NCBI GenBank assembly: GCA_018661775.1
Contig: JABJHO010000014.1
Location: 42,305 to 106,304, forward strand
Reading direction: 5' to 3'
Source: Candidatus Magasanikiibacteriota bacterium
Lineage (GTDB): Bacteria; Patescibacteriota; Patescibacteriia; Magasanikbacterales; UBA922
DNA length: 64,000 bases
Shown: in pieces, positions 12,947 to 47,254 of the stretch
Layout: each line of letters begins with the position of its first letter
Numbering within the stretch: the first letter of the stretch is position 1
The notes under the pieces: model-generated
Told to the model about the DNA's origin: nothing
What the model saw: the letters and a program-made list of their open reading frames with translations, nothing else
Database searches by the model: none
Translations under genes and position numbers: made by a program

Positions 12947-15727
12947 ATGATTTCTCTTAAAAAAATGTACGAAACTGTGTTTGGAAGTGCCAACGATGCA
13001 ACCATGAAAAATTTTCAACCATTAGTGAGCACTATTAACGCATTAGAGGTTGAGTACGAGGCGCTGACCGATGAGCAAATTCAAGAAAAAACTACAGTAT
13101 TTAAAAAACAACTAGCGGATGGTAAGAGTCTTAATGAGATATTACCAGAAGCTTTTGCCACGGTAAGAGAGGCAGGTAAGCGCGTTCTTGGAATGCGTCA
13201 TTATGATGTGCAACTTATTGGAGGTATCGCACTCCACAGAGGTATAATTGCAGAAATGAGAACAGGAGAAGGAAAAACGCTTGTGGCAACACTACCGACA
13301 TATTTGAACGCCCTTGAAGGTAAAGGGGTTCATGTGATTACGGTAAATGACTATCTTGCAAAAAGAGACGCGGTTTGGATGGGGCAGATATATGATTTCT
13401 TGGGATTGTCTGTTGGGATAGTACAAGGACAGCGTGTGTCTTTTTTGTATGACACGTCATTTGATGGAAGTGAAGAGGGGGGAGACATTGATGTTGCACG
13501 AGACCAGTTGGGGAGTTTTAAGATTGAAGACCAGTATCTGAGACCGTGTTCTCGAAAAGATGCGTATCGTGCGGATATCACATACGGAACAAACAATGAA
13601 TATGGTTTTGATTATTTGCGAGATAATATGGTGCAAGATGTAGAAGAGATGGTTATGCGTCCTGGGGAAGAAATGCATTACGCGGTGATTGATGAGATTG
13701 ATTCTATTTTAATTGATGAGGCGCGCACACCACTGATTATCTCTGCACCTGCTGAGGCGGCCACAGAGCAGTATTATACGTTTGCAAAAATTGTAAAAAC
13801 ATTAAAAGAGGAAGATCATTATAATGTTGATGAAAAAATGAATAGCGCCACACTTACAGCTGACGGTATTACTGTGTTTGAAAAAACATTGGGAGTGGAA
13901 AATATCTATGCAGAAGGTGGAATGCGTATTGTGCATCATGTTGAGCAAGCGCTTAAGGCCGAGATGTTGTTTAAGCGAGACAAAGAGTATGTGGTAGAAG
14001 AGAATGAAGTGGTAATTATTGATGAGTTTACTGGAAGAAAAATGCCAGGAAGGCGATATTCAGAAGGTTTGCATCAGGCAATAGAAGCAAAGGAAGGTTT
14101 GTCAATTCAACAAGAGAGTAAGACGCTTGCTACGATCACGTTTCAAAATCTTTTTCGTATGTACACCAAGCTTTCGGGTATGACAGGTACGGCAATTACC
14201 GAAGAAGAGGAATTCGGGAGTATTTATCAGTTAGACGTGCTGGTGATCCCTACAAACAAAGAAGACAAGAGAGTAGACAGGACAGATAGGATTTATAAAA
14301 ATGATACCGGCAAAAACAAAGCAATTTTAGAAAAAATAAAAGAATGCAAAGAAAAAGGGCAGCCTATTCTGGTTGGTACTATTTCGGTAGAAAAGAATGA
14401 GGTGCTGAGTCACTATCTTTCTCTTAATAATATTACACATGAGATACTTAATGCCAAGAACCATGAACGAGAAGGGGAGATTGTGGCTAATGCTGGAAAA
14501 ACAAGTGCGGTGACACTTGCCACAAACATGGCGGGCCGTGGTGTGGACATTAAGCTTGGTGGTGCAGATGCTACAAAAGAGGAGGAGCAGCGGGTTATTG
14601 AAGCTGGCGGTCTTTTTGTACTTGGAACAGAGCGGCACGAGTCACGGAGAATAGATAATCAGTTGCGCGGTAGAAGTGCGCGTCAGGGTGACCCCGGTGA
14701 GACGCAATTTTTTGTTTCAACACAAGATGATCTTATGCGTATTTTTGGCGGCGAAAGACTTCAGTCCGTTATGACGCGGTTGAAGGTGCCAGAAGATATG
14801 CCAATTGAGCAAAACATGATTACGAAGATGCTCGAAGGTGCACAAAAAAAAGTAGAGTCCCACCATTATGATACAAGAAAACACTTGTTAGAATATGATG
14901 ATATTCTCAATAAGCAGCGGCATATTATTTACCAAAAGAGGCGAGAAATTCTTGATCTTTCAAAAGAGTCTGAGGTTGATGAGAAAGAAACAGAAGGTGG
15001 TGCTACGTCGCTAAAAGAGGTTGTTATGAATATGATAGAGCAAGAGATTATGTTTGTGGTATCTTTTCATACGAATGTTCGAATGGAAGAAGGAAAGCAG
15101 GATGATGAGTGGAATATTCAGGAAATTTATGAAACAATGCACACGATTTGTACTTTTACAGAAGAAGAAAAGCGAGGGCTTCTTTCTATGGGTAACACCA
15201 AGGAGAGCAAGTTTGATGCAGTGCAAGAGCGGGATCGTATTGTGCAGTTTTTACTTACCAAAGCATCGACTGCATATACTGCTATTGAAGAACATATTGC
15301 TTCTCAGGGTCAGCATATGGATATTGGTGAGGCAGATAAAGTAATGCGTGCGGTAGAAAAACAAATATTATTACGTTCGGTTGATACGCTTTGGGTGGAT
15401 CATTTAGTTGAGATGACATATTTACGAACAGGCATTGGTTTGCGTGGGTATGGCCAGAGAGATCCACTTATTGAGTATAAAAAAGAGTCGTTTGGTATCT
15501 TTAATAGACTGCAAGAAAATATTCAAAAAGAGGTAGTATATTCATTTTTTAAAGTGGGAGTAGGTTTGCAGATTGCTCCGACTATTATGGCTGAAGATAG
15601 TATGATTCTGAAGGGTGCAAAAAAAACCACAGAAAGCGAAGCATTGCAAAATAAAGATGGTGGACCAGGCACAGCAAAAAAGAAAAAAATGAGTAAAAAA
15701 GAACGCAAGAGGAGTAAAAATAAGTAA
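12947..15727 (+). CDS. secA: Preprotein translocase ATPase SecA
   Basis: 926 aa. MRTGEGKTLVATL, DEIDSILIDEARTPLIIS and RGRSARQGDPG. Lys-rich C-terminal tail without the zinc finger. Confidence 0.97.
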   Translation: MISLKKMYETVFGSANDATMKNFQPLVSTINALEVEYEALTDEQIQEKTTVFKKQLADGKSLNEILPEAFATVREAGKRVLGMRHYDVQLIGGIALHRGIIAEMRTGEGKTLVATLPTYLNALEGKGVHVITVNDYLAKRDAVWMGQIYDFLGLSVGIVQGQRVSFLYDTSFDGSEEGGDIDVARDQLGSFKIEDQYLRPCSRKDAYRADITYGTNNEYGFDYLRDNMVQDVEEMVMRPGEEMHYAVIDEIDSILIDEARTPLIISAPAEAATEQYYTFAKIVKTLKEEDHYNVDEKMNSATLTADGITVFEKTLGVENIYAEGGMRIVHHVEQALKAEMLFKRDKEYVVEENEVVIIDEFTGRKMPGRRYSEGLHQAIEAKEGLSIQQESKTLATITFQNLFRMYTKLSGMTGTAITEEEEFGSIYQLDVLVIPTNKEDKRVDRTDRIYKNDTGKNKAILEKIKECKEKGQPILVGTISVEKNEVLSHYLSLNNITHEILNAKNHEREGEIVANAGKTSAVTLATNMAGRGVDIKLGGADATKEEEQRVIEAGGLFVLGTERHESRRIDNQLRGRSARQGDPGETQFFVSTQDDLMRIFGGERLQSVMTRLKVPEDMPIEQNMITKMLEGAQKKVESHHYDTRKHLLEYDDILNKQRHIIYQKRREILDLSKESEVDEKETEGGATSLKEVVMNMIEQEIMFVVSFHTNVRMEEGKQDDEWNIQEIYETMHTICTFTEEEKRGLLSMGNTKESKFDAVQERDRIVQFLLTKASTAYTAIEEHIASQGQHMDIGEADKVMRAVEKQILLRSVDTLWVDHLVEMTYLRTGIGLRGYGQRDPLIEYKKESFGIFNRLQENIQKEVVYSFFKVGVGLQIAPTIMAEDSMILKGAKKTTESEALQNKDGGPGTAKKKKMSKKERKRSKNK

Positions 15728-15817: not shown

Positions 15818-17854
15818 ATGAACAATCAAGAAGGGACAAAGCGCGTAAGAATGCGTTGGGGAATGGTAAGTATTACTATTTGTTTTTTGGCTATGCTCGG
15901 GTTTATATTCCCGAAGTATACAAATGTTGCTATTAACAATATTAATTCTTTGGCATATCTAGGATTACCAAACATATCGGAAGAGTCTTTTCGGTTGGGT
16001 CTAGATTTGCAAGGCGGTGCACATTTAATATATGAGGCAGACGTACAACACGTGGCAATCGAAGATCGTGCAACTGCAGTAGAAGGTGTGCGAGATGCGG
16101 TTGAGCGCCGAGTAAACGGGACGGGAGTTTCTGAACCAAATGTCCAAACAGCGCGTGTGGGTGAGGCATATAGGCTTATTGTTGATCTTCCAGGTATTGA
16201 AAATGTAAATGAAGCAATAAAACTTATAGGGGAGACACCGGTGCTAGAATTTAAGGAAGAAAATGATGTACCATCAAGGGAGCTTAATGAAGAAGAGAGA
16301 GAGTTAATAACACAAACAAATAGTACAGCAAAATCACGTTCAGAGGAGATAGCAGCCCGAGTGGCAGGTGGTGAGTCTTTTGAAGAGCTTGTTTCTGAGC
16401 TTTCTGAAGACACGATCACAAAAAATAATGGAGGGAGTTTGGGAAATGTTGAGGCAGGTCTGAGTATAACAGGCCCACTTTATGATTGGGCGAAGACTCA
16501 TGTGGATGGGGACATTTCTGAAACACCAATAGAAACAGAGCTGGGATATCACGTTGTAAAGCGCGGGAAAGATGGTGAGTCAAAAGAAAAAGTTTCAGCG
16601 AGCCATATACTAATCTGTTATTTTGGTGCACAGGGTTGTGAAGATGAAACATACACAAAAGAGTCGGCACTAGAAAAAGCACAAGAACTTTTTACTCAAG
16701 CAAATGCTGAAAATTTTGCTGATTTAGCAAAAGAATTTTCTACTGGACCAAGTAAGGGTGCGGGTGGGGACCTTGGTTCTTTTGGGCGCGGTATGATGAT
16801 ACCTGCGTTTGAAGAGGTAGTGTTTTCTGCAGAAGTGGGACAAATTGTAGGGCCAGTTGAAACTGATTTTGGGTATCATGTGATTTATAAGACCGATGTG
16901 GAGGAGGTTGCAACGTATGGCCTTGCTCATATTATGAGTAAAAAGCTAACAGAAAGAGAAGTTCTCCCACCGCAGGATTCATGGAAATCAACAGAGCTTT
17001 CCGGAAAACAACTTGAGCGGGCGGACGTTGCTATTGATCCGCAAACAGGTGCCGTACAAGTTTCTCTTGTTTTTGATAAGGAAGGAAAAAAACTATTTGA
17101 AGATATTACACGAAGAAACCTTAATAAACCTGTTGCAATCTTTTTAGATGGCTCTCCTATTAGTATACCAACAGTTCAGGCCGTCATCGGTGGAGGGGAG
17201 GCGGTGATTACTGGATCATTTACCATTCCAGAAGCAAAACTTTTATCTCAAAGACTTAATACGGGTGCATTACCTGTTCCTATTACTCTTGTATCCCAGC
17301 AGGCTATTGGTGCAAGTTTGGGGGCCGAATCACTGGTAAAGAGTTTGCATGCCGGAATAATTGCTATTATATTGGTAATGCTCTTTATGGTTCTGTATTA
17401 TAGATTACCAGGGGTACTGGCAGTTATTTCTTTAAGCATATATATTGTTGCTGCACTTGCTATTTTTAAATTAATAGGCGTGACATTGACACTAGCTGGA
17501 ATTGCTGGATTTATCCTCTCTATTGGTATGGCGGTTGATGCAAATGTACTGATTTTTGAAAGAATGAAGGAGGAGCTGCGCGAAGGGAAGAGTTTGAAAG
17601 TTGCGGTGGAAGAAGGGTTTGTGCGTGCGTGGACATCTATACGAGATGGAAATATTTCAACACTTATTACCTGTGTATTGTTGGTTGGGTTTGGTGCAAG
17701 TTTTGTTCAGGGGTTTGCTGCAACATTGTCAATTGGTATTTTATTGAGCATGTTTTCGGCGATTACCATTACACGATTGTTTTTGCGTGCAATAGTGCCA
17801 CTATTTTCTCGGTACGGCAATAGACTCTTTTTAGGATTTACTGAAAAAAAATAA
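15818..17854 (+). CDS. secD: Protein translocase subunit SecD with an inserted parvulin-type PPIase region
   Basis: 678 aa. SecD blocks LGLDLQGGAHL, VSEPNVQ and the C-terminal 6-TM core, with a PpiC-like segment (residues ~258-360) in the periplasmic P1 domain. Confidence 0.9.
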   Translation: MNNQEGTKRVRMRWGMVSITICFLAMLGFIFPKYTNVAINNINSLAYLGLPNISEESFRLGLDLQGGAHLIYEADVQHVAIEDRATAVEGVRDAVERRVNGTGVSEPNVQTARVGEAYRLIVDLPGIENVNEAIKLIGETPVLEFKEENDVPSRELNEEERELITQTNSTAKSRSEEIAARVAGGESFEELVSELSEDTITKNNGGSLGNVEAGLSITGPLYDWAKTHVDGDISETPIETELGYHVVKRGKDGESKEKVSASHILICYFGAQGCEDETYTKESALEKAQELFTQANAENFADLAKEFSTGPSKGAGGDLGSFGRGMMIPAFEEVVFSAEVGQIVGPVETDFGYHVIYKTDVEEVATYGLAHIMSKKLTEREVLPPQDSWKSTELSGKQLERADVAIDPQTGAVQVSLVFDKEGKKLFEDITRRNLNKPVAIFLDGSPISIPTVQAVIGGGEAVITGSFTIPEAKLLSQRLNTGALPVPITLVSQQAIGASLGAESLVKSLHAGIIAIILVMLFMVLYYRLPGVLAVISLSIYIVAALAIFKLIGVTLTLAGIAGFILSIGMAVDANVLIFERMKEELREGKSLKVAVEEGFVRAWTSIRDGNISTLITCVLLVGFGASFVQGFAATLSIGILLSMFSAITITRLFLRAIVPLFSRYGNRLFLGFTEKK

Positions 17855-17855
17855 T

Positions 17856-18749
17856 ATGATTCCAATAATACAAAAAAAGAACATTTCTTTTACAATTTCC
17901 ACGATTCTCTTTACTTTGAGTCTTATTCTACTTGTTGTTGTAGGTATTAAGCCAGGTATAGATTTTACTGGTGGTACGTTAATACAGTTGCGTTTTGAAG
18001 GAGAGCGCCCAGAACGCGCTGCATTGCAGACTGTGGTGGAGGGTCTTGAGTTAGGCAATGTACTCATACAGCCAGCAGATAACGATTCTCATATCGTGAA
18101 GATGGCATATTTAGAAGAAGAAGATCATCAGCGCCTTTTGTTATCAGTTCGGACAGCATATGAGTCTGAGGAATATAAAGTTGTTGAAGAAAGTGTTGAG
18201 ACTATTGGCCCTTCAATAAGTAGCGATCTTCGTTCAAGATCTATCAAGGCTGGATTTGGTGTGGTTATTGCTATTATTCTTTTTATCGCGTACTCTTTTA
18301 GAAAGGTGTCTAAACCAGTGTCTTCTTGGAAGTTTGGTGTTACGGCGATTATTGCCCTACTTCACGATGTTATTATAACAATGGGTGTTTTTGTACTACT
18401 TGGCCACTTTTTGGGGGTAGAGGTCGGTATTCCGTTTGTTGTGGCAATGCTTACCATTCTTGGGTATTCTGTCAACGATACTATTGTTGTATTTGATAGG
18501 ATTAGGGAAAAAATTATGAGAAAAGAATATAAGAATTTTGCAGAGACGGTTAATGTTGGAGTGAATGAAACTATTCCTCGTTCAATAAATACATCAGTAA
18601 CCACTTTGTTAGTGCTTCTTGGTCTATGTATTTTTGGTGGAGAAAGTGTACGATTCTTCTCACTTTCTTTGGTGATAGGTATTATACTAGGAACATATTC
18701 GTCACTGTTTTTGGCGAGCCCACTGTTAGTTTGGTGGGAGAAAAAATAG
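17856..18749 (+). CDS. secF: Protein translocase subunit SecF
   Basis: 297 aa. GIDFTGGT, LHDVIITMG and YSVNDTIVVFDRIRE. Confidence 0.9.
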   Translation: MIPIIQKKNISFTISTILFTLSLILLVVVGIKPGIDFTGGTLIQLRFEGERPERAALQTVVEGLELGNVLIQPADNDSHIVKMAYLEEEDHQRLLLSVRTAYESEEYKVVEESVETIGPSISSDLRSRSIKAGFGVVIAIILFIAYSFRKVSKPVSSWKFGVTAIIALLHDVIITMGVFVLLGHFLGVEVGIPFVVAMLTILGYSVNDTIVVFDRIREKIMRKEYKNFAETVNVGVNETIPRSINTSVTTLLVLLGLCIFGGESVRFFSLSLVIGIILGTYSSLFLASPLLVWWEKK

Positions 18750-18852: not shown

Positions 18853-19014
18853 ATGACAGACAATTTTATTCGTCATCTTATAGCATTTCTTGTGGTGCTT
18901 ATTTGTCTTATTATTTTTAGTGTTGGATATATGTCCGGAATACGAGGTTGGTGGTTTTCTGGCTTTACTCTTTTGTTTGTGTACATAATTATCTACAAAC
19001 TTGTTGATGTGTAA
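18853..19014 (+). CDS. Small two-helix membrane protein (53 aa), not in the ORF track
   Basis: ATG 18853. Translation MTDNFIRHLIAFLVVLICLIIFSVGYMSGIRGWWFSGFTLLFVYIIIYKLVDV*. The TAA stop lies one nucleotide before the next ATG. Confidence 0.45.
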   Translation: MTDNFIRHLIAFLVVLICLIIFSVGYMSGIRGWWFSGFTLLFVYIIIYKLVDV

Positions 19015-19015
19015 T

Positions 19016-20434
19016 ATGGAAGTAGTCCCTTTATTAAACATATCATCTATTCTAGGAGCCATAGGCAGTAATCCTATGGAAGTTTTTGTGTCAATATTTA
19101 TTTTTTTTGGATACGCCATACTATTTTATACTTTGTGCAAGGCAGTGCTTGAACTATATGTAGATTATAGGCAAAAAAAAAATACACAATCTTGGAATTT
19201 TGTTGTTTTGGCAATAGATATTCCTCCAATGAATATTCAAACCCCAAAAGCGGTTGAACAATTGTTTGCGCATTTGGCGGGTATTTTTAGTAAGCCAAAT
19301 ATTGCTGCAAAATTCCGTGGTGGCCATGTACAGAGGTCTTTTAGTTTTGAAATAGTGAGTATTGACGGATATATACAATTTCTTGTGCATACAGAAGAAG
19401 AGTACAGGGAACTTGTTGAGGCTGCGCTCTATGCGCAATACCCTAACGCTGAAATTACACAAGTAGAAGATTATGTGCAGAAGATTCCAGATAGGTATCC
19501 TCATGAAGAATATGATATTTGGGCTACAGATATTGGATTGGCCGAACACAGTGCATATCCAATTCGGATGTATTCTGATTTTGAACACAAAAACTCGGAA
19601 GAAGAGGTGTTAAAAGATCCAATGAGTGCTTTGCTCGAGAGCTTTTCTCGCATAGGGTCTGGTGAACAGATCTGGTTGCAAATAATAGTAGAGCCAATAT
19701 CGAGTAAGTGGAAAGAAGATGTTATCGAAAAAATCAATGAAGTGTTGGGTAATGTTTCGGTTTCCGGGGCTGGGCCAGGTTCACGTTTTTTTTCCTCTAT
19801 TTCAACAATAATAGGGCAGTTGTTTTTTCATATTTTTGGAGGAGAAGAGACTGCCACTTCGGCTGATACCAGGTCAGAGATATCTTCAGGTTTGTCTCCA
19901 GGCGTCTCTAATGCTGTTCAAGGCATGGAAGAAAAAATGACAAAGGTTGGTTTAAAAACTAACATGCGTGCGGTGTATATAGGAAGAAAGGATAACTTTT
20001 CACCTCAGCGTGGTATCAATGCACTTTTAGGGTCTTTGAATCAGTTTAGTATACCCACAGCCAATGCTATTGTTCCTACGTATGGTGTTTCAACATCATA
20101 TTTTAAGGCAGAAAAGCGTAGTAACCAGAAAAAGAATGTATTAATGGAGCATTATAAAAAAAGAAAAATCAGTATTAAAAAAGGACCCAAACCATATATT
20201 TTAAATGTTGAGGAGCTTGCAAGTATTTGGCATTTCCCACTTTCACATGTAAAAACACCGCTATTACAGGTTGTGGCCTCAAAACCTTCTGAACCACCAG
20301 TTGGTTTGCCAATAGAAATGAGCAGTGGTATGGGTGGTTCTTCACAGGGAGTCGATCTTTCTGGTGTTTTTCTCCCTAAGGAGGGTGAACCAGATGCATA
20401 TAGTGGGCCACCGCCAAACCTACCTTTTGGGTAG
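19016..20434 (+). CDS. Membrane-anchored protein of unknown function (472 aa)
   Basis: ATG 19016 is preferred over the TTG at 19001. One N-terminal TM helix, a large soluble body, and a Gly/Pro-rich tail. No family signature I can name with confidence. Confidence 0.6.
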   Translation: MEVVPLLNISSILGAIGSNPMEVFVSIFIFFGYAILFYTLCKAVLELYVDYRQKKNTQSWNFVVLAIDIPPMNIQTPKAVEQLFAHLAGIFSKPNIAAKFRGGHVQRSFSFEIVSIDGYIQFLVHTEEEYRELVEAALYAQYPNAEITQVEDYVQKIPDRYPHEEYDIWATDIGLAEHSAYPIRMYSDFEHKNSEEEVLKDPMSALLESFSRIGSGEQIWLQIIVEPISSKWKEDVIEKINEVLGNVSVSGAGPGSRFFSSISTIIGQLFFHIFGGEETATSADTRSEISSGLSPGVSNAVQGMEEKMTKVGLKTNMRAVYIGRKDNFSPQRGINALLGSLNQFSIPTANAIVPTYGVSTSYFKAEKRSNQKKNVLMEHYKKRKISIKKGPKPYILNVEELASIWHFPLSHVKTPLLQVVASKPSEPPVGLPIEMSSGMGGSSQGVDLSGVFLPKEGEPDAYSGPPPNLPFG

Positions 20435-31377: not shown

Positions 31378-32808
31378 ATGGAATTACACACATTATCAAT
31401 TGCCGAAGCAAGAAAAGGTTTGGATGACAAACAGTTTTCTTCTGTTGAGCTGACACAGGCGTGTTTGGAAAGAATTGCACAAAGAAATGATGAGATTAAT
31501 GCATTTATTACGGTTACCGAAGAGTTGGCACTTACAGAAGCACAAAAGGCTGACACAAGAATTGCACAAGGGGAGGTAGAAATGCTTACCGGTATTCCGT
31601 TTGGTGTAAAGGATGCTATTTGTGTGCAGGGGGTTCGTACTACTGGTGCAGCCAAGATTTTGGATAATTATACCGCGCCATATGAGGCAACCGTTATCAC
31701 GAGGATAAGAAAACAAGGTGCGGTACTTTTGGGAAAACAAAATTGTGATGGTTTTAGTCATGGGGCAAGCAATGAAAACTCCATGTATGGTCCGGTAAAA
31801 AATCCAATAGACACCACAAAAGTACCTGGTGGTTCTTCTGGTGGTTCAGCAGCTGCTGTTGCAGACAATCAATGCATATTTTCTATCGGAGGAGACACTG
31901 GCGGGTCCATTCGTCAGCCAGCAAGTTTGTGTGGTGTGGTTGGGATGAGACCAAGTTATGGGAGAAATTCTCGATATGGCATTATGGCTTTGGCAAGTTC
32001 TTTGGATGTAATAGGTCCTCTCACAAAAACGGTAGAAGATGCTGCGTTGCTTATGGAAATTATGGCTGGACATGACCCAAAAGATGCCACAACGGTGGTA
32101 GACCATATTCCTGACTATAGTAAAAAAAGTCAAACAGATGTTGCTGGCTTGAAGATAGGAGTGCCAAAAGAGTATTTTTCACAAGATGGTGTAGACCAAG
32201 AAGTGCAAGAACGTATATACCAAAATATAAAGTCATTAGAAAAGCAGGGGTGTACTGTAGTAGAAGTTTCTCTTCCACACACACGATACGCAATTGCAGC
32301 GTATTATGTTCTTATGTCTTCTGAGGACAGCTCAAATTTAGCACGGCTCGATGGTGTTCGGTATGGTGTGCGAGAGGCGCAAGATACGCTGTATAATACG
32401 TATAGCAACTCAAGAGCCGAAGGGTTTCCAGAAGAGGTAAAGCGTAGGATTATGATGGGAACGTATGTGCTGTCTGCTGGATACTATGAAGCGTATTACA
32501 AAAAAGCACAAAAAGTACGGACACTTATTGCACAGGATTTTGAGACTGTGTTCTCGCAAGTTGATGTACTTATTTCCGCAACCTCGCCATTTACTGCATT
32601 TGGGATTGGGGAAAAGTCACAAGATCCCCTTAGCATGTATCTTGCTGATGTTTTAGTGAGTCCAGCCTCTCTTGCTGGTGTGCCAGCACTATCTGTTCCA
32701 GTGGGTACTGCGAGTAATGGCTTACCGATTGGCTTGCAGGTGATCGGACCACGCCTTGGTGAGAGTTGTGTGTTGCAGGTTGGAAATAGTATTTTTAATA
32801 ACCAATAA
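31378..32808 (+). CDS. gatA: Glu/Asp-tRNA amidotransferase subunit A
   Basis: 476 aa. Amidase signature GGSSGGSAAAVA and GGDTGGSIRQPAS. Confidence 0.95.
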   Translation: MELHTLSIAEARKGLDDKQFSSVELTQACLERIAQRNDEINAFITVTEELALTEAQKADTRIAQGEVEMLTGIPFGVKDAICVQGVRTTGAAKILDNYTAPYEATVITRIRKQGAVLLGKQNCDGFSHGASNENSMYGPVKNPIDTTKVPGGSSGGSAAAVADNQCIFSIGGDTGGSIRQPASLCGVVGMRPSYGRNSRYGIMALASSLDVIGPLTKTVEDAALLMEIMAGHDPKDATTVVDHIPDYSKKSQTDVAGLKIGVPKEYFSQDGVDQEVQERIYQNIKSLEKQGCTVVEVSLPHTRYAIAAYYVLMSSEDSSNLARLDGVRYGVREAQDTLYNTYSNSRAEGFPEEVKRRIMMGTYVLSAGYYEAYYKKAQKVRTLIAQDFETVFSQVDVLISATSPFTAFGIGEKSQDPLSMYLADVLVSPASLAGVPALSVPVGTASNGLPIGLQVIGPRLGESCVLQVGNSIFNNQ

Positions 32809-32818
32809 TAATTATCGT

Positions 32819-34228
32819 ATGAAAAAAGCTGATATACAAAAAATGGAATCACAATCAAGGCAGTCTTTTACGTATGCAACGCATGATATTCAAGATTATC
32901 GACAGTCTTGGCGGATATTTCGTATTATGGCTGAATTTGTCGAAGGCTATTCCTTTCTTTCGACGCTAAAAAATGAAATTACTATTTTTGGATCAGCACG
33001 TTTTTCTCCAGATGATCCGTATTATATTATTGCCAGAGAATTAGGAAAGATGTTGGGAGAAAAAGGGCATACCATTATTACAGGCGGTGGTCCTGGTATT
33101 ATGGAAGCAGCAAATCGTGGGGCGCATGACGCTGGTGCAGAGTCTGTGGGGCTAAACATACAATTACCTTTTGAGCAGATACTCAATGCACATACAACCA
33201 AATCTGCATCATTTAATTATTTTTTTACACGCAAAGTAATGTTAACTTCACCTGCGACAGCATTTGTGTGTTTTCCTGGTGGTTTTGGTACAATGGATGA
33301 ATTTTTTGAGGTGGTAGATTTGTGTGAGCTTGGCATGATGCAGTCCGTGCCAATTGTCTTAGTTGGAAGTTCATACTGGAACCCACTTTTGGAATTTCTT
33401 CGAAAGAGTTGTTGCGCTACAGGTTCTATTACAGAAGAACAAATAGATAAAATACATGTTGTTGACACGGCAGAAGAAGCATATATATTGTTACAGGATG
33501 TTGAAGATCGGCCACATGACCCAAACATGGTATTGCATCAGTTTAGCCAAGATGGCAATATAGAGTGGAAGGTATTTAGGATAATGGCAGAACTGGTAGA
33601 AGGGTTTGAGTTTTTGGTAAACATGAAAGAAGATATTACGGTACTTGGAACAAAACACATACCAAAAGATTCGCATTATTATTCTGATGCAGAAAAACTT
33701 GGTAAACAGCTTGTTGATCACGGTTTTTCTGTGGTTACCGGTGGAAAATACGGTATTGCAGAGGCAGTAAACAAAGGTGCATATGAAGCGGGTGGTGCGT
33801 CATACGGACTTGGTATGGATGTTGGTGGGCATAGGGAGCTTAACCCATATCTTACGCAGTCAATGTTATTTCGTTTTGCGTTTACAAGAAAGCTTATTGT
33901 TACGGCACCATCGAAAGGGTTTGTATTTTTCCCAGGTGGGTTTAGTACGCTTCATCAGTTATTTGAAGTGCTTACACTTATTCAAACAAAGAAAATGGCA
34001 AAACGACCTATTATATTATACGACAGAGAATTTTGGCAACCATTGCATGAGTTTATTAAAACAACTATGGTGCATGACGTTGGGACAGTGTCGGATGAAG
34101 ACGATGAGTTGTATCAAATCGTAGACAGTGTGGAGGCTATACATAAAATACTTGGCGAGGCACCCGAAGAGTCAAAACAGTTTACGATGCATTGGGATGA
34201 CGAAACTGCAGCGCACTATAAGCAGTAA
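32819..34228 (+). CDS. Tandem double-LOG (TIGR00730-like) protein; second domain degenerate
   Basis: Domain 1 has TGGGPGIMEAANRGA and PGGFGTMDEFFEV. Domain 2 has TGGKYGIAEAVNKGA and PGGFSTLHQLFEV. ATG 32819 is preferred over the track start 32756. Confidence 0.8.
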   Translation: MKKADIQKMESQSRQSFTYATHDIQDYRQSWRIFRIMAEFVEGYSFLSTLKNEITIFGSARFSPDDPYYIIARELGKMLGEKGHTIITGGGPGIMEAANRGAHDAGAESVGLNIQLPFEQILNAHTTKSASFNYFFTRKVMLTSPATAFVCFPGGFGTMDEFFEVVDLCELGMMQSVPIVLVGSSYWNPLLEFLRKSCCATGSITEEQIDKIHVVDTAEEAYILLQDVEDRPHDPNMVLHQFSQDGNIEWKVFRIMAELVEGFEFLVNMKEDITVLGTKHIPKDSHYYSDAEKLGKQLVDHGFSVVTGGKYGIAEAVNKGAYEAGGASYGLGMDVGGHRELNPYLTQSMLFRFAFTRKLIVTAPSKGFVFFPGGFSTLHQLFEVLTLIQTKKMAKRPIILYDREFWQPLHEFIKTTMVHDVGTVSDEDDELYQIVDSVEAIHKILGEAPEESKQFTMHWDDETAAHYKQ

Positions 34229-34280: not shown

Positions 34281-34370
34281 GGAGAGATGGCAGAGTGGTC
34301 GAATGCGCAGCCTTGGAAAGGCTGTGTACGAGCAATCGTACCGCGGGTTCGAATCCCGCTCTCTCCGCCA
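34281..34370 (+). tRNA. tRNA-Ser (anticodon GGA), CCA encoded
   Basis: Manual cloverleaf: acceptor GGAGAGA/TCTCTCC, anticodon stem CAGCC/GGCTG with loop TTGGAAA, long variable arm, T-arm GCGGG-TTCGAAT-CCCGC, discriminator G then CCA. Confidence 0.9.
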
Positions 34371-34378
34371 ATATAAAA

Positions 34379-34466
34379 GGAGAGGTGCCGGAGTGGTTGA
34401 ACGGGGCGCTCTCGAAAAGCGTTGTCCGGTTTTCTCGGACCGCGGGTTCGAATCCCGCCCTCTCCG
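34379..34466 (+). tRNA. tRNA-Ser (anticodon CGA), CCA not encoded
   Basis: Acceptor GGAGAGG/CCTCTCC, anticodon stem GCGCT/AGCGT with loop CTCGAAA, long variable arm, identical T-arm. Followed by cga, not cca. Confidence 0.9.
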
Positions 34467-34555
34467 CGAATATACAAGAGGTTATGCGGTTTCGCTTCGT
34501 TTCACCCAAATTTTCACACACAGTGGTAAGTCCTTTTTAATTTTTTTTGGGAAAT

Positions 34556-44884: not shown

Positions 44885-47254
44885 ATGAATACATTAAAAA
44901 AAGCTAACATCCCAACAGTTATTGTCGTCTTTGGTGCGACAGGAGATTTGATGGAGAAAAAAATTGCTCCATCTCTTTTGCATTTGTACAAAAATGGTAA
45001 GTTGCCAACTCAGTTTAAGATTGTCGGCGTTGCCAGGAAAAGTAATAGCGATGGTCAGTTTCAGAAATTAGTTGGGGATCATTTAAAAAAACATTCTAAG
45101 CAACATCCATCAAAAGAAAAGTTTAAAAAGTTTTTGGATTATTTTACTTATCAATCAGGCCAGTTTCAAGAACCCAAGACTTATAGCGAGCTTAGTAAAA
45201 AACTTAAGCAGATAGATGATGAGTGGGGAGTATGTACTAATAAGCTTTTTTATCTAGCAGTCCCGCCAAAGTTTTATCAAACTATATTTAATAATTTATC
45301 AGCTTCTGGACTGACTAAGCCTTGTAGTGAGGAAGAGGGTTGGACTAGAGTATTAGTTGAAAAGCCATTTGGCAGTGATTTAAAAACAGCCAAAGAATTA
45401 GAAGAGGTGTTGGGTAAGCTCTTTAGAGAGGAACAGATTTTTAGAATTGATCATTACTTGGCTAAAGAAATGCTGCAAAATATTTTGGCTGTTAGGTTTT
45501 CTAATAATTTATTTGAACAAACTTTTAATAATCGGTTTATTGATAGCATTGAATTATACTTACATGAAAAGAAAGGGGCCGAAGGTCGCGGTAGTTTTTA
45601 TGATAGCGTTGGAACCCTAAAAGATGTTGGCCAAAATCATTTGTTGCAGATGTTGGCTCTTGTCACTATGGATATGCCACAAAGTTATAATGCTAAACAT
45701 ATTCGTGACAAGAGGTATGAATTAATGAAACATTTAATTCCATTGAAAAAATCCGAGATGAGCACCAATACTTTTAGAGCTCAATACGAAGGATATACTC
45801 AGGTAGAGGGCGTTAATGCAAAATCAAAAACAGAAACATTTTTTAAACTGCAGTGCTTCTTAAATCATCCAAGGTGGCGAGATGTACCTATTACTATTGA
45901 AAGTGGTAAGGGTATGGCTGCACCTAAAAAAGGTATTGCTTTGAATTTAAAACACACTATGCCATGTTTGTGCCCTAAAGGCTCAGAGCATTATCGTAAT
46001 AAGATAATTCTTACTATGGAACCAGAAGAGGGTATTACAATTGAATTCTGGGCCAAGAAACCGGGATTTCAGTGGCAGATAGAAAAGAAAGAGTTGAAGT
46101 CTTTTTATCGTAAGAATGCCAAGCAGGCTCAGTATACAGAAGAGTATGAAAAACTTTTATTCGATTGTATTGTCGGGGATCAAACTTTATTTGTTAGCAC
46201 TAAAGAGGTCCTTGCAATGTGGAAGTTTATTGATCCAATTGTTAAAGCCTGGGAAAGTAAAATAGTGTCACTAGAAAAATATAAAAAAGGATCGAAGACT
46301 ATTTCTACTTCTGTAAAGTTTAGTTCAACTAAAGTTAAAGATGCAGGACAAATGCCTTTAGAAATTGGAATTGTTGGTCTTGGTAAAATGGGTGGTGGTC
46401 TTGCTAGGCAGTTATTAGAAAAAGGCTGGAAGATTCATGGTTATAACAGGAGCCCAGAGGAGACACGTAAATTAAAAAAAGATGGATTAATTCCAGAATT
46501 TAGCTTAGAGGATATGGTAAAGAATCTACCATCACCAAAGATTGTTTGGCTAATGGTTCCTTCTGGTAAGCCAGTTGATGAAAATATTAATAAGCTAGCA
46601 AAGCTTTTGGGTAAAGGGGATTATATTATTGATGGGGGTAATTCTTTTTTCCAAAATACTGTCAAACGATCTCGTAAAGTTACGGCTAAGAAAATTAATT
46701 TTATGGATTGTGGTGTGTCTGGAGGTCCCGAGGGAGCGCGCCACGGGGCTTGTTTGATGATTGGTGGTAAAAAAGTTGATTATGATTTCTTAAAGCCTTT
46801 GTATTCTGATTTGGCTATTCATCAAGGCGAAGAATTTTTCCCTGGTTATGGAGCTGGCCATTTTGTAAAGATGGTTCATAATGGTATTGAATATGGCATG
46901 ATGCAGTCTATTGCTGAAGGATTTGCGATTATGAGAAAATCAAAATATAAATTACACTTGCGTAAAATTGCAGAGGTTTATAACCATGGTAGTGTAATTG
47001 AATCTAGTTTGATCAATTGGATGGGAAATGCTTTTGCCTTATTTGGCGATGATTTAAAAGGTGTGTCTGGTAGAGCCTCACATAGTGGCGAAGGGCTTTG
47101 GACAACACAGGTAGCGCATTCTTTGGGAATATCCGATAAGGTTATTCACGAGTCACTAAAAGCTAGAGAGAGAAGCCAGAAAAAACCAAGTTACCAAGGT
47201 AAGATTATTCAGGCTTTAAGAAATCAGTTTGGCGGACATAATTTAAAAAAATAA
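44885..47254 (+). CDS. Fused glucose-6-phosphate dehydrogenase / 6-phosphogluconate dehydrogenase (decarboxylating, short form)
   Basis: 789 aa single ORF. G6PD blocks are GATGDLMEKK, EKPFG and RIDHYLAKE. From about residue 485 come IGIVGLGKMGGGLA, IDGGNS, GVSGGPEGARHG and FVKMVHNGIEYGMMQ (Gnd-like). Confidence 0.85.
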   Translation: MNTLKKANIPTVIVVFGATGDLMEKKIAPSLLHLYKNGKLPTQFKIVGVARKSNSDGQFQKLVGDHLKKHSKQHPSKEKFKKFLDYFTYQSGQFQEPKTYSELSKKLKQIDDEWGVCTNKLFYLAVPPKFYQTIFNNLSASGLTKPCSEEEGWTRVLVEKPFGSDLKTAKELEEVLGKLFREEQIFRIDHYLAKEMLQNILAVRFSNNLFEQTFNNRFIDSIELYLHEKKGAEGRGSFYDSVGTLKDVGQNHLLQMLALVTMDMPQSYNAKHIRDKRYELMKHLIPLKKSEMSTNTFRAQYEGYTQVEGVNAKSKTETFFKLQCFLNHPRWRDVPITIESGKGMAAPKKGIALNLKHTMPCLCPKGSEHYRNKIILTMEPEEGITIEFWAKKPGFQWQIEKKELKSFYRKNAKQAQYTEEYEKLLFDCIVGDQTLFVSTKEVLAMWKFIDPIVKAWESKIVSLEKYKKGSKTISTSVKFSSTKVKDAGQMPLEIGIVGLGKMGGGLARQLLEKGWKIHGYNRSPEETRKLKKDGLIPEFSLEDMVKNLPSPKIVWLMVPSGKPVDENINKLAKLLGKGDYIIDGGNSFFQNTVKRSRKVTAKKINFMDCGVSGGPEGARHGACLMIGGKKVDYDFLKPLYSDLAIHQGEEFFPGYGAGHFVKMVHNGIEYGMMQSIAEGFAIMRKSKYKLHLRKIAEVYNHGSVIESSLINWMGNAFALFGDDLKGVSGRASHSGEGLWTTQVAHSLGISDKVIHESLKARERSQKKPSYQGKIIQALRNQFGGHNLKK

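What the first reader, a model, noticed from the sequence alone, without database searches (positions are those of the whole stretch)
16265..16990. Parvulin-type PPIase domain(s) inserted into the periplasmic P1 region of SecD
Seen in the sequence:
- SecD is 678 aa. Residues ~1-148 and ~390-678 carry the normal SecD blocks (LGLDLQGGAHL, VSEPNVQ, the C-terminal TM bundle).
- Between them sits a full PpiC/parvulin-like segment at residues 258-360. It reads SASHILI..FADLAKEFSTGPSKGAGGDLGSFGRGMMIPAFEEVVF..GQIVGPVETDFGYHVIYK.
- It is preceded by a second, partial copy at residues ~172-248 (FEELVSELSED..NNGGSLGNV..ISETPIETELGYHVVKR).

Established knowledge:
- The SecDF P1 head is the mobile element proposed to hold emerging preproteins.
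- PrsA, SurA and PpiD are separate parvulin-containing foldases that act at the translocon exit.

Inference: this SecD has a foldase/chaperone module built directly into P1, possibly replacing a free PrsA or PpiD.
Basis: partly seen in the sequence, partly recalled or inferred. Interest (0 to 1): 0.5.

Follow-up and report, generated by a model that had tools for sequence, protein, structure and literature searches.

The report
SecD with built-in nested parvulin foldase
In this candidate-phyla-radiation bacterium and many relatives, the protein-export motor SecD carries two prolyl-isomerase (parvulin) domains, one nested inside the other, within its extracellular arm, so a folding helper appears to be hard-wired to the export channel's exit.

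Summary
The 678-aa SecD (window 15818-17854) is an intact SecD with about 240 extra residues (150-391) between the P1-base strand LEFK and the P1 head. Pfam finds two significant parvulin matches there.

It is not an assembly artefact. At least 120 protein clusters share the architecture. So do 33 of the 80 species-representative genome loci retrieved, from Magasanikbacteria, Uhrbacteria, Falkowbacteria, Peribacteria and other Patescibacteria. At least 61 further clusters carry a single-parvulin version.

The "partial" first copy is a complete, circularly permuted parvulin. Its missing first strand lies after the second copy, at residues 366-377. Covariation and the single-domain relatives show this. 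The layout is therefore P1 > permuted Par1 > canonical Par2, joined by a continuous two-stranded beta-ribbon.

Par2 keeps the catalytic signature: both histidines in 168/170 sequences, Asp/Glu in 141/170, and the Met/Phe pocket. Par1 has lost it in most relatives. The SecD/SecF proton-path residues are intact.

Best reading: a membrane-tethered foldase/holdase riding on the moving P1 head. This is a covalent counterpart of the SurA-, PpiD- and PrsA-type chaperone partnerships with SecDF. Enzymatic activity is not shown, and replacement of free PrsA/PpiD could not be tested. I found no paper describing this.

The parts
12947..15727 (+). secA (926 aa), immediately upstream. Context: the order secA-secD-secF is conserved.
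   Evidence: One search gives the ORF and a SecA-type translation. The same order appears on the contig of homologue P0066.
15818..17854 (+). secD, 678 aa including the stop codon. This is the whole fusion protein.
   Evidence: NCBIfam TIGR01129 secD scores 376 bits against a cut-off of 244. The AF2 model has mean pLDDT 82.7. The best PDB fold matches are SecDF structures 5yhf, 5xap and 3aqp.
15818..16264 (+). Residues 1-149: TM1 and the N-terminal half of the P1 base, ending in the strand LEFKEEN.
   Evidence: Pfam SecD_1st covers 90-149 and Sec_GG covers 58-75. Residues 55-146 align to T. thermophilus SecDF residues 30-116.
16265..16582 (+). Residues 150-255: Par1 core (alpha1 to beta4). This is the outer, circularly permuted parvulin, and it is degenerate in most relatives.
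   Evidence: Rotamase profile positions 12-95 only, E 5.5e-14. The family consensus is Y207 and N245 in place of Asp and His, while the window has S207 and H245.
16583..16912 (+). Residues 256-365: Par2, a canonical complete parvulin nested in Par1 and probably catalytic. It carries a conserved Cys267/Cys274 loop.
   Evidence: The Rotamase profile is matched over positions 1-96. H263 and H354 are both kept in 168/170 sequences, D/E318 in 141/170, and C267+C274 in 160/170. M327 is kept in 63/70 and F331 in 68/70. Foldseek matches the Pin1 PPIase domain 4tns_B with TM 0.82.
16913..16948 (+). Residues 366-377: beta1' (TYGLAHIMSKKL), the displaced first strand of Par1.
   Evidence: AF2 places a strand at 367-375 with pLDDT 84-89. 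The strongest covariation pairs in residues 140-400 link it to Par1: 207-368, 245-371, 250-370, 250-368 and 167-377. The antiparallel register is i+j = 616-622. In single-parvulin relatives the homologous strand is EVRxxHILIRTK with an invariant His.
16949..16990 (+). Residues 378-391: linker into the P1 head.
   Evidence: Residues from 375 onward align to T. thermophilus SecDF from residue 142.
16991..17287 (+). Residues 392-490: P1 head core and the return to the P1 base.
   Evidence: Pfam SecDF_P1_head covers 390-487 at E 5.9e-27. This is one of the best-conserved parts of the protein, at 0.72 mean pairwise identity.
17288..17851 (+). Residues 491-678: TM2-TM6, with the essential TM4 aspartate D574.
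   Evidence: Pfam SecD_SecF_C. D574 aligns to T. thermophilus D340.
17856..18749 (+). secF (297 aa), the partner subunit. It starts 2 nt after the secD stop.
   Evidence: TIGR00966 scores 275.6 bits against a cut-off of 160. D208 and R242 align to T. thermophilus D637 and R671. secF follows secD in all related loci.

Best explanation
**What it is.** This is a functional SecD, working as a proton-driven SecDF motor together with the adjacent SecF. Its extracytoplasmic P1 domain carries a two-domain parvulin module, inserted where the chain passes from the P1 base (strand LEFK) into the P1 head.

**Layout.**
- The module is nested.
- The outer domain, Par1, is a circularly permuted parvulin. It consists of alpha1 to beta4 at residues 150-255, plus its beta1 strand at residues 366-377.
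- The inner domain, Par2 (residues 256-365), is a canonical parvulin inserted between Par1's beta4 and its beta1.
- Two long antiparallel strands run through both domains: 243-266 and 352-377.

**Proposed roles.**
- Par2 keeps the catalytic histidines, the acidic residue and the hydrophobic proline pocket. It is proposed to isomerise prolyl bonds of secretory proteins as they leave SecYEG and are handled by the P1 head.
- Par1, mostly stripped of catalytic residues but still conserved, is proposed to act as scaffold and/or peptide-binding surface. The inactive parvulin domains of SurA and PpiD are the model for this.
- In a cell with no outer membrane to retain soluble chaperones, fusing the foldase to SecD would keep it at the channel exit.

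**Shown:** domain identity, insertion site, nested topology (by covariation), conservation, and lineage-wide distribution.

**Inferred:** enzymatic activity, action on emerging substrates, and the selective reason for the fusion.
For: **Domains and insertion site.**
- Flank alignment to T. thermophilus SecDF shows the insert taking the place of residues 117-141 of that protein.

**The motor is intact.** SecD D574 and SecF D208 and R242 align to the T. thermophilus residues D340, D637 and R671.

**Par2 catalytic set is conserved.**

| Feature | Kept in |
|---|---|
| H263 and H354 together | 168/170 |
| D/E318 | 141/170 |
| F322 | 67/70 |
| M327 | 63/70 |
| F331 | 68/70 |
| T349 | 64/70 |

**Par1 has lost the catalytic set in most relatives.**
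- Position 207 is Tyr in 114/170 sequences.
- The commonest 245/371 combination is Asn/Arg, in 88/170 sequences.

**Nested topology from covariation (170 sequences, Neff 127).**
- Pair 207-368 is the top long-range pair in residues 140-400, and 245-371 ranks fifth.
- Pairs with Z>3 between each beta1-type strand and each domain core:

| Strand | vs Par1 core | vs Par2 core |
|---|---|---|
| beta1' (366-377) | 26 | 8 |
| beta1 (256-266) | 1 | 16 |

- The homologous pairs 260-359 (Z 7.1) and 368-250 (Z 7.2) both score high. The swapped alternatives 260-250 (Z -2.1) and 368-359 (Z 1.2) do not.
- Between strands 243-266 and 352-377, 16 of 18 coupled pairs have i+j = 614-622, as expected for an antiparallel ribbon.
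- The H/H state at 245/371 needs about 6 changes on the SecD tree. The pairings Y-E, F-D and D-K/R at 207/368 recur.

**Single-parvulin SecD relatives show the permutation directly.**
- Their order is alpha1...GYH(beta4), a linker, then xxHILIRTK, with both His essentially invariant.
- Moving that strand to the front restores a full-length Rotamase match over profile positions 1-96.
- AF2 builds both strands with confidence.

**Distribution.**

**Biological plausibility from the literature.**
- AlphaFold models place SurA's two parvulin domains on the SecDF P1 head (PMC9987972).
- PpiD contacts SecD's periplasmic domain (PMC9643414).
- PrsA-like parvulin lipoproteins form an obligate complex with the Sec translocon and crosslink to SecD in Mycoplasma.
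Against: - No activity data exist. Parvulin domains with intact-looking sites can be dispensable or inactive (PpiD's role is questioned).
- About 17% of relatives lack an acidic residue at position 318.
The nested topology rests on covariation from 170 related sequences, which phylogeny can inflate. Position 250 also couples to several Par2 positions.
- pTM is only 0.47, so the placement of the module relative to the P1 head and SecYEG is unknown.
- Un-permuting the window's own Par1 did not extend its Pfam match.
Confidence: 0.7

Rival explanations
1. Non-catalytic capture surface. Both parvulin domains serve only as extra binding surface for unfolded polypeptide, enlarging the P1 head's grip (a holdase or ratchet). 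Prolyl isomerisation is irrelevant, as proposed for PpiD's parvulin domain and SurA's P1 domain.
For: Par1 has lost its catalytic residues but stays conserved, including invariant W224 and G206. The functional importance of PpiD's parvulin domain has been questioned. About 17% of relatives lack Asp/Glu at position 318.
Against: H263 and H354 in Par2 are kept in 168/170 sequences, along with the Met/Phe pocket. Par2 is as conserved as the P1 base, at 0.61 against 0.64 mean identity. In the single-domain variants all catalytic positions are kept: H256 in 60/61, H281 in 61/61 and D/E218 in 52/61.
Confidence: 0.2
2. Different topology. The insert would be two self-contained, circularly permuted units in tandem, each beta4 pairing with the beta1-type strand that follows it, rather than one domain nested in the other.
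For: In the single-parvulin variants the strand after beta4 must belong to the same domain. AF2 shows tight turns at 253-255 and 365-366, which could be read as hairpins.
Against: Covariation favours the crossed pairing. beta1 (256-266) couples to Par2, with 16 against 1 pairs at Z>3. beta1' couples to Par1, with 26 against 8. Pairs 260-250 and 368-359 show no coupling, while 260-359 and 368-250 do. The degenerate positions 245 and 371 change together, whereas 263 and 354 are invariant together. Pfam aligns residues 263-359 as one full-length domain.
Confidence: 0.08
3. Structural spacer or envelope adaptor. The module would merely lengthen or stiffen P1, for example to reach through a wall or S-layer or to bind another envelope component, with no role in substrate folding.
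For: The site appears to tolerate large lineage-specific length differences in other SecDs. E. coli SecD residue 348 and a 993-aa SecDF model position 379 align to query residues 402 and 390.
Against: A spacer would not need a conserved parvulin active site. A free-standing membrane protein combining a P1-head-like domain with the same parvulin subtype exists, arguing for a functional pairing of the two.
Confidence: 0.05
4. Assembly or gene-calling artefact, with a parvulin gene chimerically joined into secD.
For: None found.
Against: The frame is open and continuous. The same architecture occurs in at least 120 clusters and 33 species-level genomes from many independent projects. Covariation links the insert's ends to each other.
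Confidence: 0.01

Closest known systems
Canonical SecDF (Thermus thermophilus, PDB 3AQP, 5YHF, 5XAP)
   Same: The layout of TM1, P1 base, P1 head and TM2-6 is shared. The essential Asp (TM4) and the Asp and Arg of the SecF half are conserved, and secF is adjacent. These are the best sequence and fold matches.
   Different: About 228 residues (147-374) take the place of T. thermophilus residues 117-141. They form two parvulin domains that no solved SecDF has.
SurA (E. coli): chaperone with two tandem parvulin domains, P1 inactive and P2 active
   Same: One degenerate and one catalytic-looking parvulin lie side by side. SurA is the best PDB match covering both copies (1m5y, 250 columns, 27% identity). 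AlphaFold models place SurA's parvulin domains on the SecDF P1 head (PMC9987972).
   Different: There is no SurA N- or C-terminal chaperone core (NCBIfam SurA 52 bits against a cut-off of 394). The attachment to SecD is covalent. The domains are nested with a circular permutation rather than in simple tandem. The host is a Patescibacteria lineage and not a classical diderm.
PpiD/YfgM and PrsA: membrane-anchored parvulin foldases at the Sec exit. Includes the Mycoplasma PrsA-like dome proteins Mpn444 and Mpn436.
   Same: Each is an extracytoplasmic parvulin held at the membrane next to SecYEG and SecDF. PpiD contacts SecD. Mpn444 crosslinks to SecD, and its complex with the translocon is nearly obligate.
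   Different: Those are separate proteins with their own anchor and a PrsA/SurA-type chaperone domain into which the parvulin is inserted. Here the host domain is SecD P1 itself. PrsA models score about 87 bits against cut-offs of 343-361.
Single-parvulin SecD of Falkowbacteria, Buchananbacteria, Uhrbacteria and Parcubacteria (555-630 aa)
   Same: The insertion site is the same, and so is the circularly permuted parvulin with beta1 after beta4.
   Different: They have only one domain, which keeps all catalytic residues. The window's protein has a second, canonical parvulin nested inside, and its outer domain is degenerate in most relatives.

Membership tests
SecD (protein translocase subunit, TIGR01129) | Profile score above the curated cut-off | tested here: met
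   376.4 bits against a cut-off of 244.4, matched in two stretches split by the insert.
SecD (protein translocase subunit, TIGR01129) | Architecture of TM1, P1 (base plus head) and five C-terminal TMs | tested here: met
   Pfam finds SecD_1st, SecDF_P1_head and SecD_SecF_C. AF2 helices and Foldseek matches to SecDF structures agree.
SecD (protein translocase subunit, TIGR01129) | Essential proton-path residues (T. thermophilus D340, D637 and R671) and an adjacent secF | tested here: met
   SecD D574 and SecF D208 and R242 align to them. secF starts 2 nt after secD.
SecD (protein translocase subunit, TIGR01129) | Stimulates protein export using the proton-motive force | not testable with these tools
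   Needs genetics or biochemistry.
Parvulin / PpiC-type PPIase domain (PF00639, PF13616): Par2 | Full-length profile match above the gathering score | tested here: met
   Rotamase 72.9 bits over profile positions 1-96, and Rotamase_3 87.1 bits, against cut-offs of about 22.
Parvulin / PpiC-type PPIase domain (PF00639, PF13616): Par2 | Two active-site histidines, an Asp/Cys before beta2, and a Met/Phe proline pocket | tested here: met
   H263, D318, M327, F331 and H354 are present in the window. Both His are kept in 168/170 sequences and D/E318 in 141/170.
Parvulin / PpiC-type PPIase domain (PF00639, PF13616): Par2 | Measurable cis-trans prolyl isomerase activity | not testable with these tools
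   Requires an enzyme assay.
Parvulin / PpiC-type PPIase domain: Par1 | Profile match above the gathering score | tested here: met
   Rotamase 53.3 bits, E 5.5e-14, but only profile positions 12-95.
Parvulin / PpiC-type PPIase domain: Par1 | Canonical strand order with beta1 first | tested here: not met
   There is no beta1 before alpha1. The beta1-equivalent lies at 366-377, after Par2. The single-domain relatives show the same order.
Parvulin / PpiC-type PPIase domain: Par1 | Catalytic residues | tested here: not met
   The family consensus is Y207, N245 and R371. The window has S207 with H245 and H371, so it has the two His but no Asp/Cys.
PrsA foldase | PrsA profile above cut-off, with an N/C chaperone domain flanking the parvulin and a lipoprotein anchor | tested here: not met
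   The best PrsA models score 85-87 bits against cut-offs of 343-361, matching only the parvulin part.
SurA | SurA profile above cut-off, with an N-terminal chaperone core plus a C-terminal strand | tested here: not met
   51.8 bits against a cut-off of 394. Only the parvulin domains align.

The most novel reading that the evidence does not exclude
The SecD-parvulin fusion is a natural "Rosetta stone". It would show that parvulin chaperones act physically on the SecD P1 head. In these bacteria, proton-driven swinging of the head would be mechanically coupled to capture, prolyl isomerisation and release of the emerging chain, making one polypeptide an integrated translocation-folding motor. It would also be the first described circularly permuted, domain-nested parvulin.
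Probability: 0.35. Interest if true: 0.8.

Novelty: new variant of a known kind. Interest (0 to 1): 0.6.

Why it matters
How extracytoplasmic chaperones are recruited to the Sec exit is an open question, and so is whether SecDF's mobile P1 head hands substrates to them. Current evidence rests on crosslinks, low-resolution EM and AlphaFold docking for SurA, PpiD and PrsA-like proteins.

A lineage-wide covalent fusion of parvulin domains to the P1 head region is independent evolutionary evidence for that partnership. It also offers a compact, single-chain system in which to test it, through P1 constructs, point mutants and chimeras in model organisms.

The finding adds a fold-level curiosity as well: a circularly permuted parvulin hosting a second parvulin. 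And it bears on how ultra-small Patescibacteria, with reduced genomes and no outer membrane, organise protein folding outside the cell.

Tried and rejected
1. **AFDB fold search.** I tried it to find UniProt entries with the same architecture. The library was unavailable.
2. **Origin of the insert.**
   - The best non-SecD hits to the insert are 360-415-aa triple-parvulin proteins. I considered them as the source of an out-of-register gene fragment.
   - Their relatives are named Planctomycetes, Deltaproteobacteria and Myxococcales.
   - Their high rank probably reflects summed domain scores. They say nothing about origin, or about free parvulins in Magasanikbacteria.
3. **Co-occurrence of a free parvulin with the fusion in one genome.**
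   - Source names were absent.
   - Contigs of similar length turned out to be different records.
   - The "replacement" idea therefore stays untested.
4. **Un-permuting the window's own Par1** (beta1' moved to the front). This did not extend the Pfam match (53.1 bits, still profile positions 12-95). The same trick worked for the single-domain relative (profile positions 1-96, up 5 bits).
5. **Tandem self-contained permuted units** as the topology. Rejected on covariation.
6. **Literature searches.** The terms were SecD with parvulin, PPIase, fusion, Patescibacteria or Magasanikbacteria, and circular permutation with parvulin. None returned a description of this architecture.
7. **AF2 coordinates** are not returned by the tool. 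Contacts could not be read from the models, and only secondary structure and confidence were used.
Full report
**1.

The window carries secA (12947-15727), a 678-aa secD (15818-17854) and secF (17856-18749) on the + strand.

Pfam places these domains on SecD:
- SecD_1st at residues 90-149.
- Two PpiC-type rotamase stretches (Rotamase_3 E 5e-38, Rotamase E 4e-34).
- SecDF_P1_head at 390-487, covering profile positions 17-114 of 114.
- SecD_SecF_C at 490-655.

NCBIfam's secD model is passed at 376 bits against a cut-off of 244, in two stretches. PrsA, SurA and PpiC models match only the parvulin part, far below their cut-offs.

Each copy is significant when scanned alone:
- Residues 150-255 score 53 bits (E 5.5e-14) but cover only profile positions 12-95.
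- Residues 259-398 cover positions 1-96 (Rotamase_3 E 1.6e-24).

The finding's coordinates 16265-16990 equal residues 150-391.

**2. It is not an artefact, and it is lineage-wide**

- The 120 best database homologues are 57-96% identical and 636-716 aa long. All carry the same Pfam set. Where named, they are "SecD" of Candidatus Magasanikbacteria or Patescibacteria.
- I searched 1.8 billion cluster representatives with the insert alone, then typed the hits with local HMMs. This found about 16 further 50%-identity clusters with the order SecD_N, Par1, Par2, SecD_C.
- A scan of one genome per GTDB species returned 33 loci with the full architecture among the best 80. secF follows secD in every locus where downstream sequence was available.
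- The record titles include Magasanikbacteria, Uhrbacteria, Falkowbacteria, Parcubacteria group and Peribacteria. Several automatically named MAGs have titles that look unreliable.
- A search with one odd locus (L040) showed that a shorter SecD of 555-630 aa with a single parvulin is also common. It forms 61 clusters, including Falkowbacteria, Buchananbacteria, Uhrbacteria and Parcubacteria.

**3. Where the insert sits**

- Residues 55-146 align to T. thermophilus SecDF residues 30-116. Residues 375-658 align to its residues 142-424.
- About 228 residues therefore take the place of T. thermophilus residues 117-141. That is the point where the chain leaves the P1-base strand (LEFR/LEFK) and enters the P1 head.
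- The head core is retained and highly conserved. The module decorates the head and does not replace it.
- The motor residues are intact. SecD D574 corresponds to D340, and SecF D208 and R242 correspond to D637 and R671.
- P1 is extracytoplasmic in every SecD. That is established knowledge, summarised in PMC5974789. The parvulins therefore face outward.

**4. The "partial" copy is a circularly permuted parvulin that hosts the second copy**

Par1 lacks the first strand of the fold, which in parvulins carries the first active-site histidine (xxHILx).

After Par2 comes a confident extra strand. AF2 places it at 367-375 with pLDDT 84-89. Its sequence is beta1-like: LAHIM in the window and ELSRIL in the consensus.

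The single-parvulin relatives settle its nature:
- Their domain starts at alpha1 directly after LEFKEEN.
- It runs through GG[DE]LG, the Met/Phe helix and FGYH (H256 in 60/61).
- Only then, after a 15-20-residue linker, comes E-V-R-x-x-H-I-L-I-R-T-K (H281 in 61/61).

Moving that strand to the front restores a full-length Rotamase match over profile positions 1-96. AF2 builds the strand at 276-285 with pLDDT 83-87.

For the two-domain proteins I tested which domain each beta1-type strand belongs to. I used covariation (MI with APC correction) on 170 sequences, Neff 127.

- The top long-range pair in residues 140-400 is 207-368. Pair 245-371 ranks fifth. Pairs 250-370, 250-368 and 167-377 are also in the top 20.
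- Pairs with Z>3 between each strand and each domain core:

| Strand | vs Par1 core | vs Par2 core |
|---|---|---|
| beta1' (366-377) | 26 | 8 |
| canonical beta1 (256-266) | 1 | 16 |

- The homologous contacts 260-359 (Z 7.1) and 368-250 (Z 7.2) both score high. The swapped alternatives 260-250 (Z -2.1) and 368-359 (Z 1.2) do not.
- Between the long strands 243-266 and 352-377, 16 of 18 coupled pairs have i+j = 614-622. That band holds 33% of all pairs between the two strands. This is the signature of one continuous antiparallel ribbon running through both domains.
- The couplings are not a single-clade effect. The H245/H371 state needs about 6 changes on a SecD-core tree. The pairings Y207-E368, F207-D368 and D207-K/R368 recur.

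The layout is therefore P1 base, then Par1 (alpha1 to beta4), then Par2 (beta1 to beta4), then Par1 beta1', then the P1 head. I found no paper mentioning a circularly permuted parvulin.

**5. Which domain is likely active**

Par2:
- H263 and H354 are kept together in 168/170 sequences.
- Asp/Glu318 is kept in 141/170.
- F322, M327, F331 and T349 are kept in 63-68 of 70.
- Its mean pairwise identity (0.61) equals that of the P1 base (0.64).
- A Cys267/Cys274 pair in the beta1-alpha1 loop is present in 160/170 sequences. The two residues are lost together, which is consistent with a disulfide in this extracytoplasmic domain. This is an inference.

Par1:
- It is less conserved (0.47).
- In most relatives it has Tyr207, Asn245 and Arg371 at the catalytic positions.
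- It keeps invariant G206 and W224.
- The window's own clade has His at both 245 and 371 but Ser at 207.

**6. Mechanism proposed**

*Shown:* the architecture, topology, conservation and distribution described above.

*Inferred:*
- Par2 is a working PPIase, and Par1 is a scaffold and/or peptide-binding pseudo-enzyme.
- Both ride on the P1 head. According to the SecDF working model, the head captures the emerging precursor in its cavity and swings between the F and I forms (PMC5974789).
- Tethering would keep a foldase at the channel exit in cells that cannot retain soluble periplasmic chaperones.

This mirrors known non-covalent partnerships:
- SurA's two parvulin domains are modelled on the SecDF P1 head (PMC9987972).
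- PpiD contacts SecD (PMC9643414).
- PrsA-like parvulin lipoproteins form a near-obligate complex with the Mycoplasma translocon and crosslink to SecD.

A free-standing 281-297-aa membrane protein supports a functional pairing of the two modules. It combines a P1-head-like domain (37% identity) with a Par2-type parvulin (62% identity, same Cys loop).

**7. What remains open**

- Activity is untested.
- The idea that the fusion replaces free PrsA, PpiD or SurA could not be examined. The 64-kb window has no other parvulin, but no whole genome was accessible.
- The direction of evolution is unresolved: either single permuted form to nested double, or the reverse by deletion. The single domain scores slightly better against the Par1 model than the Par2 model in 46 of 61 cases.
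- The orientation of the module relative to the head and SecYEG is unknown (pTM 0.47).

**8. Novelty**

All parts are known families, and databases already hold the sequences, annotated simply as SecD. No paper in the searchable library describes a SecD-parvulin fusion or a permuted or nested parvulin.

I rate it a new variant of a known kind. It is of moderate-to-good interest to the protein-export field.

Noticed in passing
window 44885-47254 (+): A single 789-aa ORF combines glucose-6-phosphate dehydrogenase (G6PD_N and G6PD_C) with a 6-phosphogluconate-dehydrogenase-type NAD_binding_2 plus 6PGD C-terminal domain. This looks like a fusion of two pentose-phosphate enzymes.
   Followed up: no
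L081 2250-3143 (protein P0202); also P0247: Small proteins of 281-297 aa have an N-terminal TM helix, then a SecDF_P1_head-like domain (37% identical to the window's head), then a Par2-type parvulin (62% identical, same Cys...Cys loop). They amount to a free-standing "P1 head + parvulin" module in the opposite domain order.
   Followed up: partly
L040 2187-3968 and proteins P0377-P0490: SecD variants of 555-630 aa carry one circularly permuted parvulin that keeps all catalytic residues. They are common in Falkowbacteria, Buchananbacteria, Uhrbacteria and Parcubacteria. One fragment is annotated by NCBI as "peptidylprolyl isomerase, partial".
   Followed up: yes
window 19001-20434 (+): The 477-aa ORF right after secF has no hit in our Pfam copy. 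The syntenic 487-aa gene after secF on a related contig carries PF26449 (DUF8128), followed by dnaG as in the window. This is a conserved neighbour of unknown function.
   Followed up: partly
L001, L003, L007, L009-L013, L040 and others (record titles): Many species-representative MAGs carrying this Patescibacteria-type secD are titled "uncultured Gammaproteobacteria", "Candidatus Binatia", "Hyphomicrobiales" or "Lysobacteraceae/Xanthomonadaceae". The record taxonomy looks unreliable.
   Followed up: no
L004 5452-8541; L035 1517-4654: In two relatives, a Magasanikbacteria MAG and a Peribacteria MAG, the parvulin-bearing secD and secF lie in one continuous reading frame of about 1030-1045 aa. 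This would be a SecDF fusion on top of the parvulin insertion.
   Followed up: no
window 32756-34228 (+): A 490-aa ORF has two Lysine_decarbox (LOG-type) stretches plus SLOG-family matches, suggesting a duplicated LOG-like protein.
   Followed up: no
window 34281-34370 and 34379-34467 (+): Two tRNA-Ser genes (anticodons GGA and CGA) lie 8 nt apart.
   Followed up: no
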